Of a stretch of DNA of 64,000 bases, positions 1,593-47,373 are shown in pieces. Under the pieces are notes generated by a model. It had not been told where the DNA came from. It saw only the letters and a list, made by a program, of their open reading frames with translations, and did not search any database. The DNA comes from Thermoanaerobaculia bacterium (lineage in GTDB: Bacteria; Acidobacteriota; Thermoanaerobaculia; Multivoradales; JAHEKO01): the NCBI GenBank assembly GCA_046756565.1, contig JBHHWO010000002.1, forward strand, positions 1,141 to 65,140, read 5' to 3'. The number at the start of each line of letters is the position of its first letter. Positions within the stretch are counted from its first letter, which is position 1. Position numbers and translations under genes: made by a program.

Positions 1593-4480
<2,888 letters not shown>

Positions 4481-4484
<4 letters not shown>

Positions 4485-5350
4485 ATCACCTCGCAACCTG
4501 GTCGAAGGACTCCGGCGGAAGCGCATCCGAATCCGCCTGGACCGGTGGTATCGACCTCGTCTACGCCGAGGGCTCGAGCCTACAGACCAACATCGATCTC
4601 AATCGCACCTACACGACCGATGAGTTCGGCCGGCCGATGGCCTCACCGGTACGGCCGGATCCGACGACCAATGTGTCTCTGACACGACAGTCGATCGGTG
4701 AGTCCGAGTATCAGGCCATCACATTCAAGGTGAACCGGCGTTTCACAGGCAGGTACCAGATGCAGGCCCACTACACCCTCGCCGACGACAAGGACACCGA
4801 CTCCAATGAGAGAAGCGCGACCAGTTCGACAGCTTCCTTCGGCGGCGCCGACCGCTCGCTCTGGAACCCACGCTACGACTGGGGTCACTCCGAGAAGGAC
4901 ATCGAGAACCGTTTGGTCATCAGCGGTGTCTATCTCCTGCCCTGGGACTTCAAGATCTCGGGTATCGTCGAGCATGGTTCCGGTGTTCCGTACAACCCCA
5001 CCGACCGCGGTGTGGATTTTGCGTACTGCGGCTTCACATCGCTCGGCTTCGACTGCGTCGATGCCCGCCCGGTAGACGCCAATGGCAACGTCCTCCAACG
5101 CAACTCGTTTCGCAACGAGTCGGTGCAACGCATGGACCTGAGGCTGTCCAAGTTCTTCGAGTTCGGCAACGACAAGAGCGTCGACGTCTTCCTCGAGGTC
5201 TTCAACCTCTTCGACGACCAGGCTTTCGTGGTCTGCAACAGTTTCAGCTGCGACCGGCGCCGCGATCCCGAGAATGCCCAGTTTGGCTTGGCCTCAGGCC
5301 GCTTGACCCAGCCCCAGATCTACCAGATTGGAGGTCGATTCACCTTCTGA
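4481..5350 (+). pseudogene. C-terminal ~290 aa of a TonB-dependent receptor-like OM barrel, no plug or N-terminal barrel (remnant)
   Basis: Alternating beta-strand pattern ending in YQIGGRFTF (terminal Phe, OM beta-signal). No signal peptide, TonB box or plug. ATG at 4481 overlaps the kinase stop (ATGA). The same frame is closed upstream of 4451. Confidence 0.5.
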
Positions 5351-36216: not shown

Positions 36217-37296
36217 TCATTCAAGGCGATAACGTGCAACTCCGTCGCCGTGAAGAGTCCCCAGGTAGAGAAATCCCTCGTGCTCCTCCGCGGACGTCGT
36301 CTGGGAAAGGATCTCGCCCGTCGGGTCTTGGAGTGTGCGCAGGATGACTCCTGTCTCGTCGAGCGCCAGGACCGCGCCGTAGGGCTCGGCTTTGGGCCAC
36401 AGGGCCTGTGGAAGAGTGGACAGGAGCGCCTTGGCCCACGGATAGGGATGAAGGCTGTCCACCAGCGGCTTCCTCGGGGCATACAGAGCGACCCAGAAGA
36501 GTCCTCTTCGGTTCGAGGAAACGCCGTCCGGAAAACCGGGCAGATTCGCGATGAAGACATCGGAAGACCCGGCCCGCGGTCCCTCGAGCCAATGGCGGGT
36601 AATCCGATATCGGAACGTCTCGACGACCAGAACATAGTCCTCGTTAGACGATAGGGCGACTCCGTTGGCGAAATAGAGGCCGTCGAGGATTACGTCGGTG
36701 CGGCCGGTTTCCGGGTCGTGGCGCAGCAGCCGCCCATGAGGCTTCGCTTCCAACAGGTCATGGAGAGTGTTGCCAAGATCGTACTTGAAGCTCGCATCGG
36801 AGAAATAGACCGTGCCGTCGGAGGCGATGTCCACGTCGTCGGCGAGCCCGAACGGGACGCCCTCGGCTTGCGTGGCCAGAGTACTCGCGTGGCCAGTCGA
36901 ATCGATGGAGAGGAGCCCCTTCCAGGCGTCACAGACCAACAGGTTGCCTCGAGCGTCGAAATGCAGTCCGAGCGGACGCCCGCCGGTTTGGGCAAAGGTC
37001 TCGACGTTCTTCTCCCCGCCCGGCAACAGGGTGACCCGCACGATCCGGCCGTCGTCGGTGCCTGCATAGACTCGGCCCTCGGCATCCACGGCCACGTCCT
37101 CGGGCCCGGGAACCTGCCCTGGAGCCAGAACCTCCACGTCGGCCAACTCGGAGCTGACTGCGAGGGCGCGGACGAGACTCCGAACCGGCGGGGGGCGCCA
37201 CGCTGCCGGGCTGATCGGCGCTCCACGAACCCGCAGCGCGAGCAACGACGCAACGGCCAGGAGAATCCCAAGAAGGATCCAGGCGAGTCTTTTCAT
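36217..37296 (-). CDS. Strictosidine-synthase-like / SMP-30 gluconolactonase-LRE-type six-bladed propeller
   Basis: Signal anchor AWILLGILLAVASLLAL. GPEDVAVDAEGRVYAG, GRPLGLHFDARGNLLVCDA, FGLADDVDIASDGTVYFSDAS, LYFANGVALS. Confidence 0.8.
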   Translation of the reverse strand: MKRLAWILLGILLAVASLLALRVRGAPISPAAWRPPPVRSLVRALAVSSELADVEVLAPGQVPGPEDVAVDAEGRVYAGTDDGRIVRVTLLPGGEKNVETFAQTGGRPLGLHFDARGNLLVCDAWKGLLSIDSTGHASTLATQAEGVPFGLADDVDIASDGTVYFSDASFKYDLGNTLHDLLEAKPHGRLLRHDPETGRTDVILDGLYFANGVALSSNEDYVLVVETFRYRITRHWLEGPRAGSSDVFIANLPGFPDGVSSNRRGLFWVALYAPRKPLVDSLHPYPWAKALLSTLPQALWPKAEPYGAVLALDETGVILRTLQDPTGEILSQTTSAEEHEGFLYLGTLHGDGVARYRLE

Positions 37297-39734
37297 CCGG
37301 ACCTCGGCCTGCGGAGTGCCGTCAGGTCCTCCCAGGTGTCTCCCAGCCCCATCGTCTCGAGGATCGACCGGTATTCAGGATAGGAGTGCAGCGCGTCGAG
37401 AAACGGACTCACGATTTGAATGAGGTAGGGATCGCGCTGCTGAACGCTACGCTCCAGCCACCGGAAGGCCCCCTCCGGGTCTTCGAGACCAACGTGCAGC
37501 ACGGCGTAGAGGAAGGGCGCGACGTACGCGCCGGACCGGGCTTGCTCCTCGAGCTCATGGAGCATTCTCGACGCGTCGTCTTTTCTTCCAGCGGCTCCGA
37601 AGTGGTAGCCGAGCAGAGCCACGGCGAAAGGAGAGCGACCGACCAGCTCAATCCCTCGTTCGAGCGAAGCGATGGCGTCATCGTACCTGCCGCCCTGCCG
37701 GTAGGCTCGAGCCAGGTACGCGTAGTACTGTCCGAATCCCGGGTCCTGCGCAACGAGTTTCTCGAACCCCGCGATGGCTGCAGAGGAGTCGCCAGTGAAC
37801 AGCGCATCGGCCGGCACTTGCAGCCTCATGATTCGCGAAAGCGGGTCCAGTTCTTGAGCCCGCTTGGACAACTCCGCCATCTCGTCGTAGCGACCTCTCA
37901 TGCGCAGCGTCTGCTTGTACCACTGATATGCAGTAGCGTAGCTGGGGTTGAGCTCGATCGCCCTTTGAAACTCGGTCTCGGCTTCCTCCCAGTTCCACTC
38001 GAAGTTCTGGTTGATCAAGCCAAGCGTGGCATGTGGCTCCGCCAGCTCCGGGTCCAACCGCAGGGCTTCTCGGGCGGCCTTCCTTGCCAGTGGGTAGGCC
38101 CTGCCGGGTGCGAGGAGATCGTAGCCCGGGTAGCCCATGATCACGTACGCGTCGGCCAGGCCGGCGTGCGCCTCGGCAAGCGAGGGGGCGATCTCGATTG
38201 CCTGCTGGAAGTAATCCACGCTCTGCTCGAGACTTTGGGGATCTCGGCGTTGCCAGAGAGAACGACCCCGGAGATAGAGCTTGTAGGCCTCTCCGTCGAC
38301 CTGCCGAGCTGGCCCCAGGAGCGCCTCGCTCTCGGCGCCAAGCTGGACCTCGATCTCCTCGGCAACGTCCCGCGCCACGTCCCTCTGAAGGACCAGGACG
38401 TCGGTGAGCGCTCGCAGGTAATCCTGGGCCCAGAGCACTCGGTCCTCGACGGAGTCGATGAGCTGGACTCGGATGTCGACGTCACCGTCGGCTTCGAGAA
38501 CCGAGCCCGTCACCAGGTACCTTGCGCCCAACTCGCGCCCGATGCGTTCCGCCCGCTCTTCCGTGCCGTTGTAGATCATTGAGGAGGTCGGTGAAGTGAC
38601 CTTGAGCTCTCTGATTCTGGCCAGGTTGGTGATCAGCGCCACTGTCAGGCCGTTGCTGAAGTAGTCGTGATCCGGATTAGCCGATTGGTTGTTGAGTCGA
38701 AGGACAGCTATTGCGGGCGGCTCCCCGGCGATCGCCGGCGGCTCTGGTGCTCTTGGCTGGCCATTCTGGAAGACACCCCAGTAGAGGAGTCCGACAGCTA
38801 GAGCCGTGGCCGCGGCCAGACCTGCCATCCGGCTCATTCTCGGCCTCGCCGGGGCACCCGGCAACGAAACCGTCTCCGCCGCCTGGTCCTGCGCCTCGGA
38901 TCCGAGGCTTTCGAGCCGCGTATGAAGCTCTCTCGCGGATTGCGGTCTGTGTGCCCGATCTTTGCGAAGACAGTCCCCCACGATTCGGTCCAGGAGAGGG
39001 TGCAAATCTGGCCGAAGCTCTGAAATCGGCTCCGGCGTCGCTCGCAGGATTCGCGCCACGAGCTCAGCCGGCGACTGTCCCTGAAACGGCCGCTTGCCGG
39101 TGGCCATTTCGTACAGGACTGCGCCAGCCGAGAAAAGATCGCTCCGATGATCCACCGACTCTCCCTTCGCCTGCTCCGGGGACATGTACGGGACGGTACC
39201 GAGCACCGTTCCGTGCCTGGTCATTTCGCTCAAAGTCCGAGACACCTGGGTGGGAGTCTCGACCGGTCGCATCTTGGCCAGTCCGAAATCGAGGATCTTG
39301 AGTTGCCCCCTGCGAGTCACCATGAGGTTTGCGGGCTTCAGGTCCCGGTGGGTGATCCCCCTCTCGTGAGCCGTAGCCAGAGCGTCGCAGAGTGGCAGAG
39401 CCAGCTCGAGAAAGCGCCCGAGTGAGAGTCCGCCCTCGCTGATCACCTTGTCCAGGGTTTTTCCTTCCACGTGCTCCATCGTCAGAAAGTTGATCCCATC
39501 ACCCTCCTCGACCGAGTGGATCGTCACGATGTTGGGATGGTTCAGAGCAGCCAACACCTCAGCTTCGCGCCGAAATCTCGCGAGTCGATCACCAGCCTCT
39601 GCAAGCTCGGTCGGCAGCACCTTGAGTGCGACCTGTCGCTTGAGCCTCAGGTCCCTGGCCAGATAGACGCTCCCCATGCCCCCGGCACCGAGCTCGCCGA
39701 GAATCTCGTAGTGGGCGATAGTGCGGCCAATCAT
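37293..39734 (-). CDS. Ser/Thr protein kinase with TM, TolB-N-like periplasmic module and TPR repeats
   Basis: GAGGMGSVYLARD, HRDLKPANLM, DFGLAK, SPEQ. One TM helix. IAVLRLNNQSANPDHDYFSNGLTVALITNL. Multiple TPR units. Confidence 0.9.
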   Translation of the reverse strand: MIGRTIAHYEILGELGAGGMGSVYLARDLRLKRQVALKVLPTELAEAGDRLARFRREAEVLAALNHPNIVTIHSVEEGDGINFLTMEHVEGKTLDKVISEGGLSLGRFLELALPLCDALATAHERGITHRDLKPANLMVTRRGQLKILDFGLAKMRPVETPTQVSRTLSEMTRHGTVLGTVPYMSPEQAKGESVDHRSDLFSAGAVLYEMATGKRPFQGQSPAELVARILRATPEPISELRPDLHPLLDRIVGDCLRKDRAHRPQSARELHTRLESLGSEAQDQAAETVSLPGAPARPRMSRMAGLAAATALAVGLLYWGVFQNGQPRAPEPPAIAGEPPAIAVLRLNNQSANPDHDYFSNGLTVALITNLARIRELKVTSPTSSMIYNGTEERAERIGRELGARYLVTGSVLEADGDVDIRVQLIDSVEDRVLWAQDYLRALTDVLVLQRDVARDVAEEIEVQLGAESEALLGPARQVDGEAYKLYLRGRSLWQRRDPQSLEQSVDYFQQAIEIAPSLAEAHAGLADAYVIMGYPGYDLLAPGRAYPLARKAAREALRLDPELAEPHATLGLINQNFEWNWEEAETEFQRAIELNPSYATAYQWYKQTLRMRGRYDEMAELSKRAQELDPLSRIMRLQVPADALFTGDSSAAIAGFEKLVAQDPGFGQYYAYLARAYRQGGRYDDAIASLERGIELVGRSPFAVALLGYHFGAAGRKDDASRMLHELEEQARSGAYVAPFLYAVLHVGLEDPEGAFRWLERSVQQRDPYLIQIVSPFLDALHSYPEYRSILETMGLGDTWEDLTALRRPRSG

Positions 39735-40324: not shown

Positions 40325-41101
40325 TCAGTCGCGCTCGAGAAAGTTCCGGATAGCCGGGAATGACTTGATCGCTTCGATTTCGGCCCGCAGCTCCTCGACC
40401 TCGTCCTCCAGCTCCTCGACCTCATCCTCCAGCTCCTCGAGCTCTGAAGCCCTCCCGTCGAGGGTTCCCTCGACCGTAAGGTCGCCTGCGATGTGCACAT
40501 TGCCCGCGCTGTCGATGACCAGACTGTTCTCGGGACCCCCGGCCTCGATGCGGAAGATGATGGCGCCGGGCGGAATGCATTCTCCCGCGTCTACGCAGGT
40601 GCCGCCGGCATCGGAGCAGAAATTGGGATCCGGAGCGCACGGTTGCCCGTCGAATGTGCCTCCGACACAGACGCCGGCGCAATTCGCCCCGGTGCCGTCA
40701 CCGCACACGAGTCCGTGATTGGTACCGCCTTCGCAGAATCCCTGGCCGCTGACGGAGACGACCCCGGCACCGCGGTCCGCGAACCCCAGAAAGCTCGTCC
40801 CCCCGTTGTTTGCGTCATTAGTGATGATCTCCCAGTCATTTTTCGGGAAGGCGGCAGTAAAACTCGTGTCGTTGAAGAAGATCCGCATGTTGTTCTCTTG
40901 CAGCATGAACGTCGTGAAACTGAACGCTTGCTCGTTTTGGCAGTCGAATCCCAAGCAGGCGCTCCCCACGACAATGAGGTCGTCCGCGATCACCTGGTCG
41001 GCCTGGCCGGCAGACGGACCGACGGCGGCCATCACCGCCATCGCCGTGACCACCAAGGCCAGCATCCGAACAGTCGTTCCGAGCTTTCTTTGAAGGGTCA
41101 T
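40325..41101 (-). CDS. Secreted tail-fibre-like protein with Cys/Gly-rich middle and acidic coiled-coil C-terminus
   Basis: RBS AAGGAGG. Signal peptide MLALVVTAMAVMAAVGPSAGQA. DDLIVVGSACLGFDCQNEQAFSFTTFMLQENNMRIFFNDTS...NDWEIITNDANNGG resembles the N-domain of bacterial tail-fibre-domain proteins (from memory). C-terminal ELEELEDEVEELEDEVEELRAEIEAIK. Confidence 0.7.
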   Translation of the reverse strand: MTLQRKLGTTVRMLALVVTAMAVMAAVGPSAGQADQVIADDLIVVGSACLGFDCQNEQAFSFTTFMLQENNMRIFFNDTSFTAAFPKNDWEIITNDANNGGTSFLGFADRGAGVVSVSGQGFCEGGTNHGLVCGDGTGANCAGVCVGGTFDGQPCAPDPNFCSDAGGTCVDAGECIPPGAIIFRIEAGGPENSLVIDSAGNVHIAGDLTVEGTLDGRASELEELEDEVEELEDEVEELRAEIEAIKSFPAIRNFLERD

Positions 41102-41144
41102 GCTTTTTCCTCCTTGGTGAAGGGTCCGATCGCGAAAGAGCGAT

Positions 41145-41190
41145 CTGCCTCTATCTGGGGAAACGCAAAGAGCGGAGAAAAGGGATCAAG
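41145..41190. promoter_or_regulatory. Copy A of a conserved 46-nt bipartite motif (GGAAACGC ... AAAAGGGATCAAG)
   Basis: Ungapped alignment with 43625-43670 gives about 39/46 identities. The mismatches cluster between the two perfectly conserved blocks. Confidence 0.5.
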
Positions 41191-41292
41191 GGTCCGGGAG
41201 GGCGGCCAGGAGCCCTCGATAGCCTTCTGCCGATGGTCTACGATGAGCTTCGGACAATGGCTCATCACAAGCTCAAGGGGAACCGGAGCGAT
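41191..41292 (+). pseudogene. Decayed 5' fragment of an ECF sigma gene (duplicate of 43721-43825)
   Basis: gtccgggagggcggccaggagccctcgatagccttctgccgatggtctacgatgagcttcggacaatggctcatcacaagctcaaggggaaccggagcgat aligns to the real sigma gene. It lacks the ~50 nt containing the start codon, has a 1-nt deletion (frameshift), and ends after ~100 nt. Confidence 0.6.
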
Positions 41293-41375
41293 CCCCCGAG
41301 AGATAAGTGGCTGGTTCCTCCAAGTGGGGCTCAGGGGCGTCCCCAGATCGGGCAACTGCGGACAGCGGCGCTAGT

Positions 41376-43589
41376 CTAAAGGCTATCGATCGAGTCGACC
41401 TGGATCGTGACCCAGCTCCCCACGATGGCCCTCGAGTCGCCGTCCGAGTCAAAAACCGTACACTGGACAGCCACCGATCCCGGTGCGGCCAGAGTCACCG
41501 CACCGATGAGGGTCACGTGGGTTCGGAAGGAGGTCGGCCAACCGAAAGTGCCGGAAAGACCTGGAGGGCCGATTCCTCGAGATTCCAGCACCAGAGCTCC
41601 CGAAGCGAGTCGGCAAAGGACAGCGGAGCTCTGGATGATCGACGAGATCACAATATCGGTCAGCCATAGACCCGTATTGGCGATAACGACGTATTTCCCC
41701 GCGTCGAGGCTCACGCTTGAGACTTCCGTGAAGGTCGGAAACTCTGTGTCGATCGAAACTTGGGCTCCGGTGAATTGCCGGTAGCCCGCCTTCGTCTTGA
41801 GAGCCACGGAATCCAGGCCATCGAGAAGGTCGGCGTTCAGAGTACTCCCCGGGCCGTCTCCGGCCAGTGCGATCGACATGACCTCCGCGTCCCTCGCGAT
41901 CTCATCTGCAATCCGCGCTTCCGCAACGGTGCCAGTACTGATATTGCTCCCGTCGAGGTTGGTGAAGAGCGGCCCTTCGCAAGCTTGGCCGTTGCAGGTC
42001 GTGTGCGGCCCGGCAACTACTCCCAGATTGGTCAGGGCCCCGGCCACATCCGTCGCACCCGTGCCGCCTTGCACCACCGGCACCGGGCCAATCGGCGCCC
42101 CGTCTGTGGTCAGCGCCAGGCTCCACGAGGCGAGACTGCCGTCGTCCGCCCCCTCAAACACATCCTGAACAAAGAGTTGCCATTCTCCGACCGGGTCGAT
42201 CCCGTCGAAATCCGACAGGCTCGTACCGTAGGGACCGGAAGGAGCCGGCGCGGGAAGGTCCTCCGGAATGTTCACCGAGGGCCGGTATGATCCTGCGAGC
42301 GGGTTGGTTGTTAAACCGATCGTCTGGCCGGCCTCATCATCAAAGGTGAGATCGACGTTCGTTACTCCGGGACCCCCGCCACCCACAACGCTCATGAGAA
42401 GAACGGCCTGGCCCGTCGGAGCGACAAGCAAGACCCGCATATCCAGCGGAAAGGTGTGAGTGAGCTCGGTGAGGGTCACGTTCACATCGACCAGAGCTGC
42501 GCCGCCGAAGGACGCAACCGTCAGGGTCGACGGATAGGGTGTGGCCGCCGCGGCCCCGATTGTCACTGCTGCTCCGCCAGGCACCGATGTGGTCTCCGGA
42601 AAGGGAGCCACACACACTGGCGCGCCAGCGTCCACTTGCGCGAGGAATCGCCCCGAGGGGCAGTCGAGCGCCTCGAGGGCCGCCGTCAGTTCGGCGTCGC
42701 GGGCTACGACGGGATCGATTCGCGGCTCAGCCACGGTACCCATGCTCAAGTTGCTGGCGTTGAGATTCGTGAAGTTGGTCGCATCGCAGGTCGCACCGTC
42801 GCAGGTCGTGTCCGTATCTGTCGTGTGCGCTCCTCCGACCACCCCCAGGCTGGTGCGGGCTCCAGCGGCATCCGTCGCTCCCGTCCCGCCGTTGGCCAAC
42901 GCGACGGTCCCGGTCACGTTGGCCGCCGTACCACTGATGTCGATCCCCGCCGTCCCCGCTGAGAGGTTCGCCGGATCGAGATCGGTCAGCCAAGTACCGC
43001 TGCCGGAAAAGGAAGTCGCATCCACGTTGCCATCCACACTCAACTGTGTCCCGGGAGGGGGTGCCAAGGGCGTCGGAGTCTCGGCTGAAGGTCCTTGCTG
43101 CGACTCTCTTTTGCTCTCGACTTCAACGGTCGTTGCATCCCTGCCCTGGACGGCAAGATAACGTTGAACCGCCTCGAACGCCTCCTTGAACTCGAGTTCG
43201 CTCGGGCCCGCCGCCACCTGAAACAGCGCCGCTTCCGACCACATGCCGGGAGCGTCGTCCTCGCCCATCGCCCGCACCGACCAGGCATAGCGCCCGCCGC
43301 GCTCCAGGCAGCGGTCGAGTGGTGGTGTCCAGCCCAGAGCGGCGCCGCGCAGGGCCTGCTGGATCACCGGCCGCGCCTCCTCGCTGCCCTCCTGGACCTC
43401 GACCACGACCAACTCGTAGCTCTCGGCTCCCGGGACCGCGCTCCAACTGAAGGTCGGACAAGGGTCCCCGATCAGGGCGCCCGAGAGGCTGCCCGGGGAC
43501 ACCGCCACCGGGATCTCGGCTCCGGACCAGGCCGCGGCGGCAATGAGTACGCTCCAAGCACTGTGTATCTGTATTCGCTTGTTGCGCAT
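41376..43589 (-). CDS. Large secreted tail-fibre-like protein: FN3-like N-domain, two GGTGATD repeat modules, proprotein-convertase P-domain, C-terminal beta-sandwich
   Basis: ATG at 43589 after AAGGAGA. Signal peptide. CPTFSWSAVPGAESYELVVV. Two ~65-aa repeats GGTGATD-AGA-T-LGVV...FTNL...GTVAE-RI...ARDAE. P-domain-like LTELTHTFPLDMRVLLVAPTGQAVLLM...GEWQLFVQDVFEGADDGSLASWSLALT. Confidence 0.8.
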   Translation of the reverse strand: MRNKRIQIHSAWSVLIAAAAWSGAEIPVAVSPGSLSGALIGDPCPTFSWSAVPGAESYELVVVEVQEGSEEARPVIQQALRGAALGWTPPLDRCLERGGRYAWSVRAMGEDDAPGMWSEAALFQVAAGPSELEFKEAFEAVQRYLAVQGRDATTVEVESKRESQQGPSAETPTPLAPPPGTQLSVDGNVDATSFSGSGTWLTDLDPANLSAGTAGIDISGTAANVTGTVALANGGTGATDAAGARTSLGVVGGAHTTDTDTTCDGATCDATNFTNLNASNLSMGTVAEPRIDPVVARDAELTAALEALDCPSGRFLAQVDAGAPVCVAPFPETTSVPGGAAVTIGAAAATPYPSTLTVASFGGAALVDVNVTLTELTHTFPLDMRVLLVAPTGQAVLLMSVVGGGGPGVTNVDLTFDDEAGQTIGLTTNPLAGSYRPSVNIPEDLPAPAPSGPYGTSLSDFDGIDPVGEWQLFVQDVFEGADDGSLASWSLALTTDGAPIGPVPVVQGGTGATDVAGALTNLGVVAGPHTTCNGQACEGPLFTNLDGSNISTGTVAEARIADEIARDAEVMSIALAGDGPGSTLNADLLDGLDSVALKTKAGYRQFTGAQVSIDTEFPTFTEVSSVSLDAGKYVVIANTGLWLTDIVISSIIQSSAVLCRLASGALVLESRGIGPPGLSGTFGWPTSFRTHVTLIGAVTLAAPGSVAVQCTVFDSDGDSRAIVGSWVTIQVDSIDSL

Positions 43590-43624
43590 CGAGTGTCTCC
43601 TTCCCAAGGGCTGCCGAAGGTCGT

Positions 43625-43670
43625 CTGCCTCTATCTCAGGAAACGCAGAGCGCCGGAAAAAGGGATCAAG
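43625..43670. promoter_or_regulatory. Copy B of the conserved 46-nt bipartite motif, between the tail-fibre-like gene and the ECF sigma gene
   Basis: ctgcctctatctcaGGAAACGCagagcgccggAAAAAGGGATCAAG. Plus-strand reading is GGAAAC-N18-GGATCA. Minus-strand reading is TGATCC-N17-CGTTTC. Confidence 0.5.
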
Positions 43671-43687
43671 CGGTATCCTGTCGGCGG

Positions 43688-44257
43688 ATGGGAGGTGAGA
43701 TTACCCAGCTTCTGGATGTCGTCCGGGAGGGAGACCGGGAGGCTCTCAATCGCCTCTTGCCGCTGGTCTACGGTGAGCTTCGGACTCTGGCTCACCGCCA
43801 GCTCAAGGGGAATCGGGGCGATGCGTCTCTCAACACCACGGCCCTGGTGCACGAGGCCTATCTCAAGCTGGTCGATCAGGGCCGGGCGGACTGGAAGGAC
43901 CGCCGGCATTTTCTGGCGGTGGCGGCGACCGCCATGCGCCATCTCGTGATCGACCACGCCCGGCGCCGGACGGCGCAGAAGCGCGGAGGCGGGACAAGGC
44001 ACACACTCCTGGACGAAGGCCGAATCGGGATCGAGGCCCGGGCGGCTCGGTTGCTCGCCCTGGACGAGGCGTTGGAGAACCTGGCCGGTCTCGACGGGCG
44101 TCTGGCTCGCCTGGTCGAGCTGCGCTTCTTCGGGGGTCTCACCGTTGCGGAGTCGGCCGGCGTCCTCGAGGTCTCCGAGCCCACCGTGAAACGGGACTGG
44201 CGCAAGGCCAAGGCCCTGCTCTACCGGACGTTGAACGAGGACACTGCGCCGGGGTGA
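43688..44257 (+). CDS. ECF-type RNA polymerase sigma factor (Sigma70_ECF / TIGR02999-like, kinase-associated type)
   Basis: ITQLLDVVREGDREALNRLLPLVYGELRTLAHRQL...ALVHEAYLKL (region 2) and LVELRFFGGLTVAESAGVLEVSEPTVKRDWRKAKALL (region 4). Directly followed by a Hanks kinase. Confidence 0.9.
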   Translation: MGGEITQLLDVVREGDREALNRLLPLVYGELRTLAHRQLKGNRGDASLNTTALVHEAYLKLVDQGRADWKDRRHFLAVAATAMRHLVIDHARRRTAQKRGGGTRHTLLDEGRIGIEARAARLLALDEALENLAGLDGRLARLVELRFFGGLTVAESAGVLEVSEPTVKRDWRKAKALLYRTLNEDTAPG

Positions 44258-44349
44258 GCGGTCTCGCGGCAGGGCCTGCCTGGGGGCGAGCGCCGGTGGG
44301 CCTGCCAAGCGCGGTAAGATTCTCAACACCTAAACCGGGTGCCAGCATC

Positions 44350-47369
<3,020 letters not shown>

Positions 47370-47373
<4 letters not shown>

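What the first reader, a model, noticed from the sequence alone, without database searches (positions are those of the whole stretch)
41101..41292. Segmental duplication: promoter region plus a decayed 5' end of the ECF sigma gene copied in front of the second tail-fibre-like gene
- 41145-41292 aligns to 43625-43825.
- The 46-nt motif is ~85% identical. The next ~50 nt of the original (43671-43720), which hold the sigma start codon and first 11 codons, are missing. The following ~100 nt match codons 12-46 of the sigma gene with a 1-nt deletion, after which similarity stops.
- The shadow frames even give matching peptides (SIAFCRWSTMSFGQWLITSSRG versus SIASCRWSTVSFGLWLTASSRG).
- The 5' leaders of the two minus-strand genes are also related (tccttg..aaggg...tctgcctctatct).
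- The duplication apparently recruited the same control region for a second output gene and left a sigma pseudogene stub.
Basis: seen in the sequence. Interest (0 to 1): 0.6.

Follow-up and report, generated by a model that had tools for sequence, protein, structure and literature searches.

The report
Copied sigma-factor promoter with dead gene stub
About 200 bases holding a sigma-factor gene's control region and its first codons were copied 2.5 kb away, in front of another secreted-protein gene; the coding part is dead, and the control-region copy may put that gene under the same switch, a tidy but fairly ordinary case of regulatory evolution.

Summary
The duplication is real. Window 41144-41190 matches 43624-43670 (47 nt, 85%). 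Window 41191-41292 matches 43721-43822 (102 nt, 82%, blastn E 9e-22). The 50 nt between them in the original, which hold the sigma start codon, are absent from the copy. No third copy exists in the 4.8-Mb genome.

The source gene is an ECF43-type sigma (TIGR02999; LNTTAL in place of the acidic sigma-2.2 motif), coupled to a Hanks kinase with TPR repeats. The stub has no start codon, has a frameshift and stops at codon 45/46, so it is a pseudogene.

In two relatives, genes like the 737-aa protein sit divergently beside a sigma (with the kinase confirmed in one). Relatives of the 258-aa gene have no sigma and no motif nearby. The sigma-proximal copy is therefore the ancestral one.

The bipartite motif (CTTGATCC-N17-CGTTTCC on the minus strand, or GGAAACG-N17-GGGATCA on the plus strand) recurs at about a dozen related sigma loci. 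Both boxes are unchanged in the copy, but which strand the motif serves is unresolved. "Recruitment of a second output gene" is plausible (about 50%) and unproven.

The claimed similarity of the two leaders is not supported. The 258-aa protein is not detectably tail-fibre-like. No pre-duplication state was found. This is an ordinary kind of event, cleanly documented.

The parts
41144..41190 (.). Copy of the 47-nt bipartite control motif. It differs from the original at 7 positions, all outside the two boxes and the 13-nt block.
41183..41188 (-). Copy, box A. It reads TGATCC on the minus strand (candidate -35) or GGATCA on the plus strand (candidate -10). Identical to the original.
41159..41165 (-). 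Copy, box B. It reads CGTTTCC on the minus strand (candidate -10) or GGAAACG on the plus strand (candidate -35). Identical to the original.
41191..41292 (+). Pseudogene stub matching codons 12-45/46 of the sigma gene. Identity is 82% in DNA and 19 of 27 residues over codons 19-45. It has a 1-nt deletion at 41211/41212 and no start codon.
40325..41101 (-). Gene for a 258-aa secreted protein: signal peptide, a conserved ~80-aa N-terminal domain and a C-terminal coiled coil. It lies 57 nt beyond box B of the copy.
41376..43589 (-). Gene for a 737-aa secreted protein: an N-terminal domain shared with sigma-linked genes in relatives, a P_proprotein domain, and weak matches to tail-fibre repeats.
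43624..43670 (.). Original 47-nt control motif, in the 98-nt gap between the 737-aa gene and the sigma gene. Box A is 43663-43668 and box B is 43639-43645.
43671..43720 (+). Fifty nucleotides present only in the original. They hold the sigma ATG (43688) and codons 1-11.
43721..43822 (+). Source of the stub: sigma codons 12-45.
43688..44257 (+). ECF43-type sigma factor gene, 189 aa. TIGR02999 scores 213 bits against a cut-off of 126, PF07638 scores 185 bits, and LNTTAL lies at residues 48-53.
44254..47373 (+). Hanks-type Ser/Thr kinase with TPR repeats. Its start overlaps the sigma stop codon by 4 nt.

Best explanation
What happened. A stretch of about 200 nt (43624-43822) was copied 2.5 kb leftwards. 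It carried the shared control region of a divergent pair, [secreted 737-aa protein gene] <- -> [ECF43-type sigma + Ser/Thr kinase], together with the first 45/46 codons of the sigma gene. It landed between the 3' end of the 737-aa gene and the leader of an unrelated 258-aa secreted-protein gene. Shown: the homology, its boundaries, and that there are only two copies.

Fate of the coding part. It has since lost 50 nt including the start codon, gained a frameshift and drifted towards A/T. It is a dead stub. Shown.

Fate of the control part. It keeps both boxes of a bipartite ECF-type promoter unchanged. Inferred: read on the minus strand as (CT)TGATCC-N17-CGTTTCC, it fires towards the secreted-protein genes. 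The sigma, once its kinase has phosphorylated Thr50/51 in the LNTTAL motif (known for ECF43 sigmas EcfP and EcfK), would then transcribe two genes: the 737-aa gene from the original promoter and the 258-aa gene from the copy. On this reading, a scan of the 99.7%-complete genome predicts just these two promoters as the sigma's targets.
For: Duplication.
- It is real and unique in the genome.

Stub is dead.
- No start codon, a frameshift and truncation.
- GC is 61% against 65% in the original, and 7 of 14 changes in the 81-nt aligned block are C/G to A.

Sigma is ECF43-type.
- TIGR02999 213 bits, PF07638 185 bits, and a downstream kinase.
- NTTA stands in place of the acidic DAED motif. The criterion comes from PMC13147305 and PMC8999054.

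Direction of the copying.
- In G001:C369 and G010:C241, genes like the 737-aa protein sit divergently beside a homologous sigma. A kinase follows the sigma in G001:C369; the G010 contig is too short to show one.
- Twelve genes related to the 258-aa protein (ten in relatives, two paralogues in this genome) have no sigma within about 1.5 kb and no convincing motif. One weak pattern match lies inside coding sequence.

The motif is a recurrent regulatory element.
- The same bipartite pattern lies upstream of about a dozen related sigma loci: L003, L008, L009, L010, L018, L027, L031, L037, L042, L049, L056.
- Of the eight of these tested, six have a kinase directly downstream.
- In each of the nine examined, a divergent gene with a signal-peptide-like start begins 32-99 nt, and in one case up to about 200 nt, beyond the CGT box.
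- CGT is invariant, as in ECF -10 elements.

Only two sites in this genome.
- In a weight-matrix scan only the two window sites score 22.1 bits. The next hit (19.1 bits) lies inside a repeat-protein coding sequence.

State of the copy.
- All 7 differences fall outside the two boxes and the 13-nt block.
- The only intact gene beside the copy is the minus-strand 258-aa gene. It has a strong ribosome-binding site (AAGGAGG) and would have a 5' UTR of about 50 nt.
- Neither intergenic region has a sigma-70-type promoter.
Against: - Orientation is not settled. Read on the plus strand the motif is GGAAAC(G)-N17-GGGATCA(AG), which has the classic ECF -35 'AAC'. AAACG appears in 5 of the 10 loci compared by eye, beyond what my search pattern required (sequences). 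That reading would make it the sigma's own autoregulatory promoter and leave the copy without a target.
- The clustering of mismatches outside the boxes is only suggestive (permutation P = 0.09).
- Of 132 related sigma loci, 107 have a divergent upstream gene anyway. A divergent gene at every motif-bearing locus is therefore not significant.
- No terminator is predicted between the 737-aa and 258-aa genes. The second gene might be co-transcribed without needing the copy.
- No close relative shows the state before the duplication.
Confidence: 0.5

Rival explanations
1. The motif is the sigma gene's own autoregulatory promoter, read on the plus strand as -35 GGAAAC and -10 GGGATCA. The copy is then an inert relic carried along with the gene fragment. 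At most it drives a short transcript that runs antisense into the 3' end of the 737-aa gene. No second output gene was recruited.
For: - GGAAAC is a canonical ECF -35. Across related loci this box reads GGAAAC, GTAAAC or TGAAAC, and 7 of the 10 compared by eye carry the AAC hallmark (sequences).
- ECF sigmas are commonly autoregulated (general knowledge).
- The motif ends only 17 nt before the sigma ATG in this locus.
- The conservation of the boxes in the copy is not statistically compelling (P = 0.09).
Against: - The resulting sigma 5' UTR would be about 12 nt with no ribosome-binding site.
- In most related loci the motif lies nearer the divergent gene (median about 64 nt) than the sigma start (median about 110-130 nt).
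- GGGATCA is not a typical ECF -10, whereas CGT on the other strand is.
- In G010:C241 a textbook TGAAAC-N16-CGTC points at the gene related to the 737-aa protein, not at the sigma.
Confidence: 0.3
2. The stub is the last remnant of a complete second sigma (and kinase) module that once stood between the 258-aa and 737-aa genes and was lost by deletion. The promoter at the 258-aa gene would then be that module's own, now served by the surviving paralogous sigma. This is a merging of regulons, not a capture of a promoter.
For: - dN/dS over the 27 alignable codons is 0.39 (dN 0.145, dS 0.375). That is somewhat lower than expected if one partner had been neutral from the start, and hints at a period as a working gene.
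- The family is heavily multiplied in relatives, with up to 54 copies per genome.
- Two separate deletions (50 nt and 1 nt) show the region is prone to deletion.
Against: - Twenty-seven codons cannot separate 0.39 from about 0.55.
- No other sigma or kinase remnant lies near the stub (tblastn of the whole window).
- The nearby orphan kinase (37293-39734) is only 39% identical to the paired kinase, far too distant to be a co-duplicated partner.
- Genes related to the 258-aa protein are never sigma-linked in relatives.
- Homology ends abruptly at 41144 and at 41292.
Confidence: 0.18
3. The similarity is due to chance, or is an assembly artefact of a metagenome-assembled genome.
For: The genome is a fragmented assembly of 324 contigs.
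Against: - The alignment lies about 38 sd above shuffles, and blastn gives E 9e-22.
- The copies differ by 15-18% and by three indels. That is the signature of old divergence, not of a collapsed or chimeric repeat.
Confidence: 0.01

Closest known systems
ECF43-type sigma factors activated by Hanks-type Ser/Thr kinases (EcfP-PknT of Vibrio parahaemolyticus; EcfK-PknS of Xanthomonas citri; PMC8999054, PMC13147305)
   Same: - The sigma has sigma-2 and sigma-4 only.
- An xTTA motif (here LNTTAL, Thr50/51) replaces the acidic DAED motif of region 2.2.
- The kinase gene lies directly downstream, and no anti-sigma was detected.
- The output is envelope or secreted functions.
   Different: - The kinase carries a long TPR array.
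- The predicted outputs are two secreted proteins of unknown function, encoded divergently from the sigma gene.
- Nothing has been tested experimentally, and the promoter specificity is only predicted.
- The finding concerns a duplicated promoter and a gene stub, not the signalling mechanism.
Gene-fragment pseudogenes and duplicated control regions left by local rearrangement. Examples in this scan's own notes: e1-1352282 (ECF sigma stub that keeps its promoter) and e1-3891183 (shared control region of a divergent regulator/sigma pair duplicated by an insertion).
   Same: - A short 5' gene fragment with its upstream control region persists beside a neighbouring gene.
- An intact copy works a few kb away.
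- The coding part decays.
   Different: - Both promoter boxes are unchanged after about 18% divergence.
- The copy stands in front of an unrelated, intact secreted-protein gene, so a gain of regulation is plausible.
- Those notes are unchecked AI notes about other genomes.
ECF promoters with a TGATCC -35 box (Rhodobacter sphaeroides RpoE type) or a GGAAC ... TCAAA layout (E. coli RpoE type). Both are recalled from memory and were not checked here.
   Same: The motif is bipartite with a spacer of about 17 nt. One reading gives TGATCC ... CGT and the other gives GGAAAC ... ATCAAG.
   Different: Neither reading matches a described consensus in both boxes. The spacing between AAC and TCAA is 21-23 nt, longer than in RpoE promoters.

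Membership tests
ECF43-type (kinase-activated) ECF sigma factor | Matches the Sigma70_ECF (PF07638) and Sig-70_X6 (TIGR02999) models above their cut-offs | tested here: met
   PF07638 scores 184.7 bits against a cut-off of 21.1. TIGR02999 scores 213 bits against a cut-off of 126.
ECF43-type (kinase-activated) ECF sigma factor | The acidic DAED/DxxD motif of region 2.2 is replaced by an uncharged xTTA motif with the phospho-acceptor Thr | tested here: met
   Residues 48-53 read LNTTAL, followed by VHEAYLKL. The criterion is taken from PMC13147305 and PMC8999054. Most related loci examined carry the same xTTA motif; some read PTA or ATA instead.
ECF43-type (kinase-activated) ECF sigma factor | A Hanks-type Ser/Thr kinase is encoded next to the sigma, and there is no anti-sigma | tested here: met
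   The kinase gene 44254-47373 overlaps the sigma stop codon, and its Pkinase match has E 1e-43. None of the eight neighbouring proteins scanned matches an anti-sigma family.
ECF43-type (kinase-activated) ECF sigma factor | The kinase phosphorylates the sigma, and this is needed for sigma activity | not testable with these tools
   This needs biochemistry or genetics.
Pseudogene (gene remnant) | Significant homology to an intact gene, together with disabling lesions | tested here: met
   Homology: 82% over 102 nt, E 9e-22. Lesions: the start codon and codons 1-11 are absent, there is a 1-nt frameshift, and the match ends at codon 45/46 of 189.
ECF-type promoter | Two conserved boxes about 16-18 nt apart, with a free spacer, recurring upstream of genes linked to the cognate sigma | tested here: met
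   The boxes are identical between the two copies while the spacer differs. The same layout occurs at about a dozen related sigma loci. Only two sites score 22 bits in this genome.
ECF-type promoter | A defined strand and a sigma-dependent transcription start | tested here: inconclusive
   Distances, box composition and gene context fit both strands.
Phage tail-fibre-like protein (claimed for both minus-strand genes) | Sequence match to tail-fibre families | tested here: inconclusive
   The 737-aa protein gives weak matches over a repeat of about 70 aa (phrog_1591, E 2e-6). The 258-aa protein gives none, and the two proteins are not homologous.

The most novel reading that the evidence does not exclude
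The sigma-coding fragment was not merely carried along. Sequence inside sigma codons 12-46 might act as an upstream control element (a binding site, or a required upstream region) for the minus-strand ECF43-type promoter. It would then have been kept with the promoter, while the 50 nt holding the start codon were removed so that no truncated sigma fragment is made. If so, local copying of promoter plus upstream coding sequence would be a route by which kinase-controlled ECF sigmas gain new target genes.
Probability: 0.06. Interest if true: 0.55.

Novelty: new member of a known kind. Interest (0 to 1): 0.3.

Why it matters
- If the promoter copy is active, this is a clean natural example of an ECF sigma regulon growing from one target to two by copying about 200 nt of control DNA. 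The dead gene fragment marks where the copy came from.
- The locus offers a very small predicted regulon: two promoters, both next to the sigma gene. That is convenient for working out the unknown promoter specificity of kinase-activated (ECF43-type) sigmas in uncultured high-GC bacteria.
- If the copy is not active, this is an ordinary rearrangement scar.

Tried and rejected
1. Looking for the pre-duplication state.
- The best sigma relatives are only 58-62% identical in 60 related genomes, in GTDB species genomes and in JGI metagenomes.
- An exact scan for the DNA motif in metagenome contigs found nothing.

2. Pattern scans of 300 genomes of the order.
- The first scan used a spacer one base too long and returned only noise.
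- The corrected exact pattern gave 15 hits against 0 for the reversed control. Apart from this locus and L003, nearly all lie inside coding sequence. One, G102:C27, has an unclear context. The scan did not help with orientation.

3. Gene related to the 737-aa protein in G003:C45, which has no neighbouring sigma.
- Its upstream region has GCGTTTG at a similar distance. Overall similarity to our promoter and leader is marginal (p = 0.033) and lies mainly in the ribosome-binding site. I do not use it as evidence.

4. Test of whether motif-bearing loci always have a divergent gene.
- It is not informative, because 81% of all related sigma loci have one.

5. Simple tandem-duplication model (segment 41293-43822 duplicated head to tail).
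- Rejected. The left copy would have to contain a paralogue of the 737-aa gene, but the 258-aa protein is unrelated.

6. The orphan kinase 37293-39734 as the lost partner of the stub.
- Rejected, because it is only 39% identical to the paired kinase.

7. Other checks that gave nothing.
- Rfam, sigma-70 promoter and terminator scans of the region gave nothing relevant.
- RNA folds of the leaders and of the gap after the 737-aa gene are no better than shuffles.

8. Literature and data tools.
- I found no published ECF43 promoter consensus in the papers held. The supplements of PMC7826278 are not held.

Full report
**The observation**

The region was read directly and ORFs were listed. A local alignment of 41050-41400 against 43550-43900 scores 119. 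In 200 dinucleotide-preserving shuffles the mean is 21.2, sd 2.6 and maximum 29.

blastn of both regions against the whole assembly (4.8 Mb, 324 contigs, 65% GC, 99.7% complete) returns two collinear pieces:
- 41144-41190 against 43624-43670: 47 nt, 85.1%.
- 41191/2-41292 against 43721-43822: 102 nt, 82.4%, one gap, E 9e-22.

Nothing else in the genome matches. The core pattern occurs twice in the window against 0 expected. The original's 43671-43720 has no counterpart in the copy.

One sub-claim fails. The sequence to the left of 41144/43624, that is, the rest of the two leaders, is no more alike than shuffled sequence (p = 0.41 global, 0.93 local). The duplicated segment therefore runs from 43624 to 43822 in the original.

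**The genes**

- 43688-44257 (+) is an ECF sigma. PF07638 scores 185 bits. TIGR02999 Sig-70_X6 scores 213 bits against a cut-off of 126.
- Residues 48-53 read LNTTAL. This is the uncharged xTTA motif that replaces the acidic region-2.2 motif in ECF43 sigmas. Its threonine is the kinase target in EcfP and EcfK (PMC8999054, PMC13147305).
- 44254-47373 (+) overlaps the sigma stop codon and encodes a Hanks kinase with TPR repeats.
- Divergent from the sigma is a gene for a 737-aa secreted protein, 41376-43589 (-), starting at the ATG at 43589. It has a P_proprotein domain and weak tail-fibre repeat matches.
- Downstream of that gene, on the same strand, is a gene for a 258-aa secreted protein, 40325-41101 (-). 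It has a C-terminal coiled coil.
- The two secreted proteins are not homologous. The 258-aa protein has no tail-fibre match.

**The stub is dead**

In the sigma frame, 41212-41292 reads ALDSLLPMVYDELRTMAHHKLKGNRSD. The sigma reads ALNRLLPLVYGELRTLAHRQLKGNRGD. The evidence for decay is as follows:
- Codons 1-11 and the ATG are missing.
- A 1-nt deletion at 41211/12 shifts the frame of codons 12-18.
- Homology ends at codon 45/46, just before the NTTA motif.
- GC has fallen to 61% from 65%. Seven of the 14 changes in the 81-nt aligned block are C or G to A in the copy.
- NG86 gives dN 0.145, dS 0.375, ratio 0.39. This is compatible with one constrained and one free lineage, but 27 codons are too few to say more.
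- No other sigma remnant lies in the window.

**Which copy is ancestral**

No close orthologue of the sigma exists in any collection searched, so the state before the duplication cannot be seen directly. The architecture can be compared instead.
- The N-terminal domain of the 737-aa protein recurs in the genus and family. In G001:C369 and G010:C241 such a gene sits divergently next to a homologous sigma. A kinase follows the sigma in G001:C369; the G010 contig is too short to show one.
- Twelve genes related to the 258-aa protein (ten in relatives, two paralogues in this genome) have no sigma within about 1.5 kb and no convincing motif.
- The pairing of the 737-aa gene with the sigma is therefore the old one, and the copy beside the 258-aa gene is derived.
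- A simple head-to-tail duplication is excluded, because the left unit would need a paralogue of the 737-aa gene.
- The event was either a short dispersed copy or the decay of a larger duplicated module. The orphan kinase at 37293-39734 is only 39% identical to the paired kinase, so it is not that module's partner.

**What the 47-nt motif is**

Between the two copies, three elements are identical: the block TCTGCCTCTATCT, GGAAACGCA, and AAAAGGGATCAAG. All seven differences lie between them. This is the pattern of a two-box promoter with a free spacer, although the clustering alone is only suggestive (P = 0.09).

The same layout occurs upstream of about a dozen related sigma loci from several lineages: L003, L008, L009, L010, L018, L027, L031, L037, L042, L049, L056. 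Of the eight tested, six have the kinase directly downstream.

A weight-matrix scan of this genome finds only the two window sites at 22 bits. The next hit is inside a coding repeat. No sigma-70-type promoter is predicted in either intergenic region, and there is no Rfam match.

**Which strand the motif serves**

- Minus-strand reading: (CT)TGATCC-N17-CGTTTCC. It has the invariant ECF -10 'CGT'. It gives 5' UTRs of about 40-50 nt with strong ribosome-binding sites for both secreted-protein genes. In most related loci the motif lies closer to the divergent gene, whose product starts with a signal-peptide-like sequence, than to the sigma. In G010:C241 a textbook TGAAAC-N16-CGTC points at the gene related to the 737-aa protein.
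- Plus-strand reading: GGAAAC(G)-N17-GGGATCA(AG). It has the classic ECF -35 'AAC', and related loci read GTAAAC or TGAAAC at that box. This would be an autoregulatory promoter, with a sigma leader of about 12 nt lacking a ribosome-binding site.
- Tests that might have decided the matter did not. Divergent neighbours are the rule at these loci (107 of 132). Exact-pattern hits elsewhere in the order are almost all inside genes. The G003 case is statistically marginal. RNA data were unavailable.
- My estimate is about 55% for the minus strand, about 35% for the plus strand, and the rest for both or neither.

**Mechanism proposed**

Shown:
- A piece of about 200 nt, carrying the control region and a sigma 5' fragment, was duplicated.
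- The coding part decayed.
- Both boxes persist in the copy.

Inferred:
- The kinase phosphorylates Thr50/51 of the sigma.
- The sigma then directs RNA polymerase to the two minus-strand promoters, so that the 737-aa and the 258-aa secreted proteins are made together.

Caveat: the two genes are in tandem with no predicted terminator between them. The copy may act only as an internal booster.

**Comparison and verdict**

The sigma and kinase meet every testable criterion for ECF43-type systems. The stub meets the definition of a pseudogene. The motif meets the sequence criteria for an ECF promoter, but its strand and its activity are untested.

Duplicated control regions with dead gene stubs are a known kind of rearrangement scar, and this scan has noted similar cases in other genomes (unchecked notes). 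This case is clean and may record a gain of regulation, but it is not surprising. Interest is 0.3.

Noticed in passing
L221 (G001:C369) 3840-4640; L224 (G010:C241) 1480-1830; window 43150-43589: The N-terminal ~150 aa of the 737-aa protein (AVSPG..CPTFSW..YELVV..RYAWSVRA) is a recurrent domain. In two relatives its gene sits divergently next to a homologous ECF43-type sigma. In G001:C369 a small Cys-rich secreted ORF precedes it.
   Followed up: partly
window 40780-41010 (residues ~30-110 of the 258-aa protein); e.g. G037:C10:128000-175000, G057:C168: The ~80-aa N-terminal domain of the 258-aa protein (DDLIVxGSxCxGxDC...NDW) belongs to a large family in this order. Members are usually 400-650 aa and often occur in tandem arrays of up to 8-9 genes. 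Two more copies are in this genome (C35, C129). No Pfam or PHROG family matches.
   Followed up: partly
132 loci among L002-L209 (sigma homologues): In 107 of 132 related sigma loci the upstream neighbour is transcribed divergently. In those inspected, its product starts with a signal-peptide-like sequence. This suggests a general layout of 'output gene <- -> sigma-kinase' for this family.
   Followed up: partly
L047, L138, L160, L162, L163, L184, L191, about 124 nt upstream of the sigma: A group of sigma loci (the named one, L047, is verrucomicrobial; the rest are soil-metagenome contigs) shares a near-identical element, CTGAAACCCGCCACGACTGCGCA-T(7-8)-GATCGC, at a fixed distance upstream of the sigma gene. 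It is a different candidate promoter for the same sigma family.
   Followed up: no
window 43671-43690: The sigma ATG has no ribosome-binding site. TATCCT lies 8 nt upstream of the ATG, which could be a -10 box for a leaderless or short-leader mRNA. This stretch is exactly what the copy has lost.
   Followed up: no
window 41272-41300: The right-hand junction of the duplication (41292/41293) lies inside an imperfect 9-bp inverted repeat, GGGGAACCG-GAG-CGATCCCCC. The fold of the surrounding region is no better than shuffles.
   Followed up: partly
L217 (G001:C364) and L218 (G002:C2) leaders; window 43601-43613: The 13-mer GGGCTGCCGAAGG lies in the leaders of two genes related to the 737-aa protein, on the sense strand. 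In this window it lies on the antisense strand of the leader. This may be chance.
   Followed up: no
L006 (G037:C1), upstream of the sigma: At this locus the divergent neighbour of the ECF43-type sigma appears, from its N-terminal sequence alone, to be another ECF sigma (TRWSLV...YWYPL) and not a secreted protein. A weaker version of the motif lies between the two genes.
   Followed up: no
window 37293-39734: A second kinase with TPR repeats has no sigma partner. It lies downstream of the 258-aa gene on the same strand, so it could fall under the copied promoter if there is no terminator in between.
   Followed up: no
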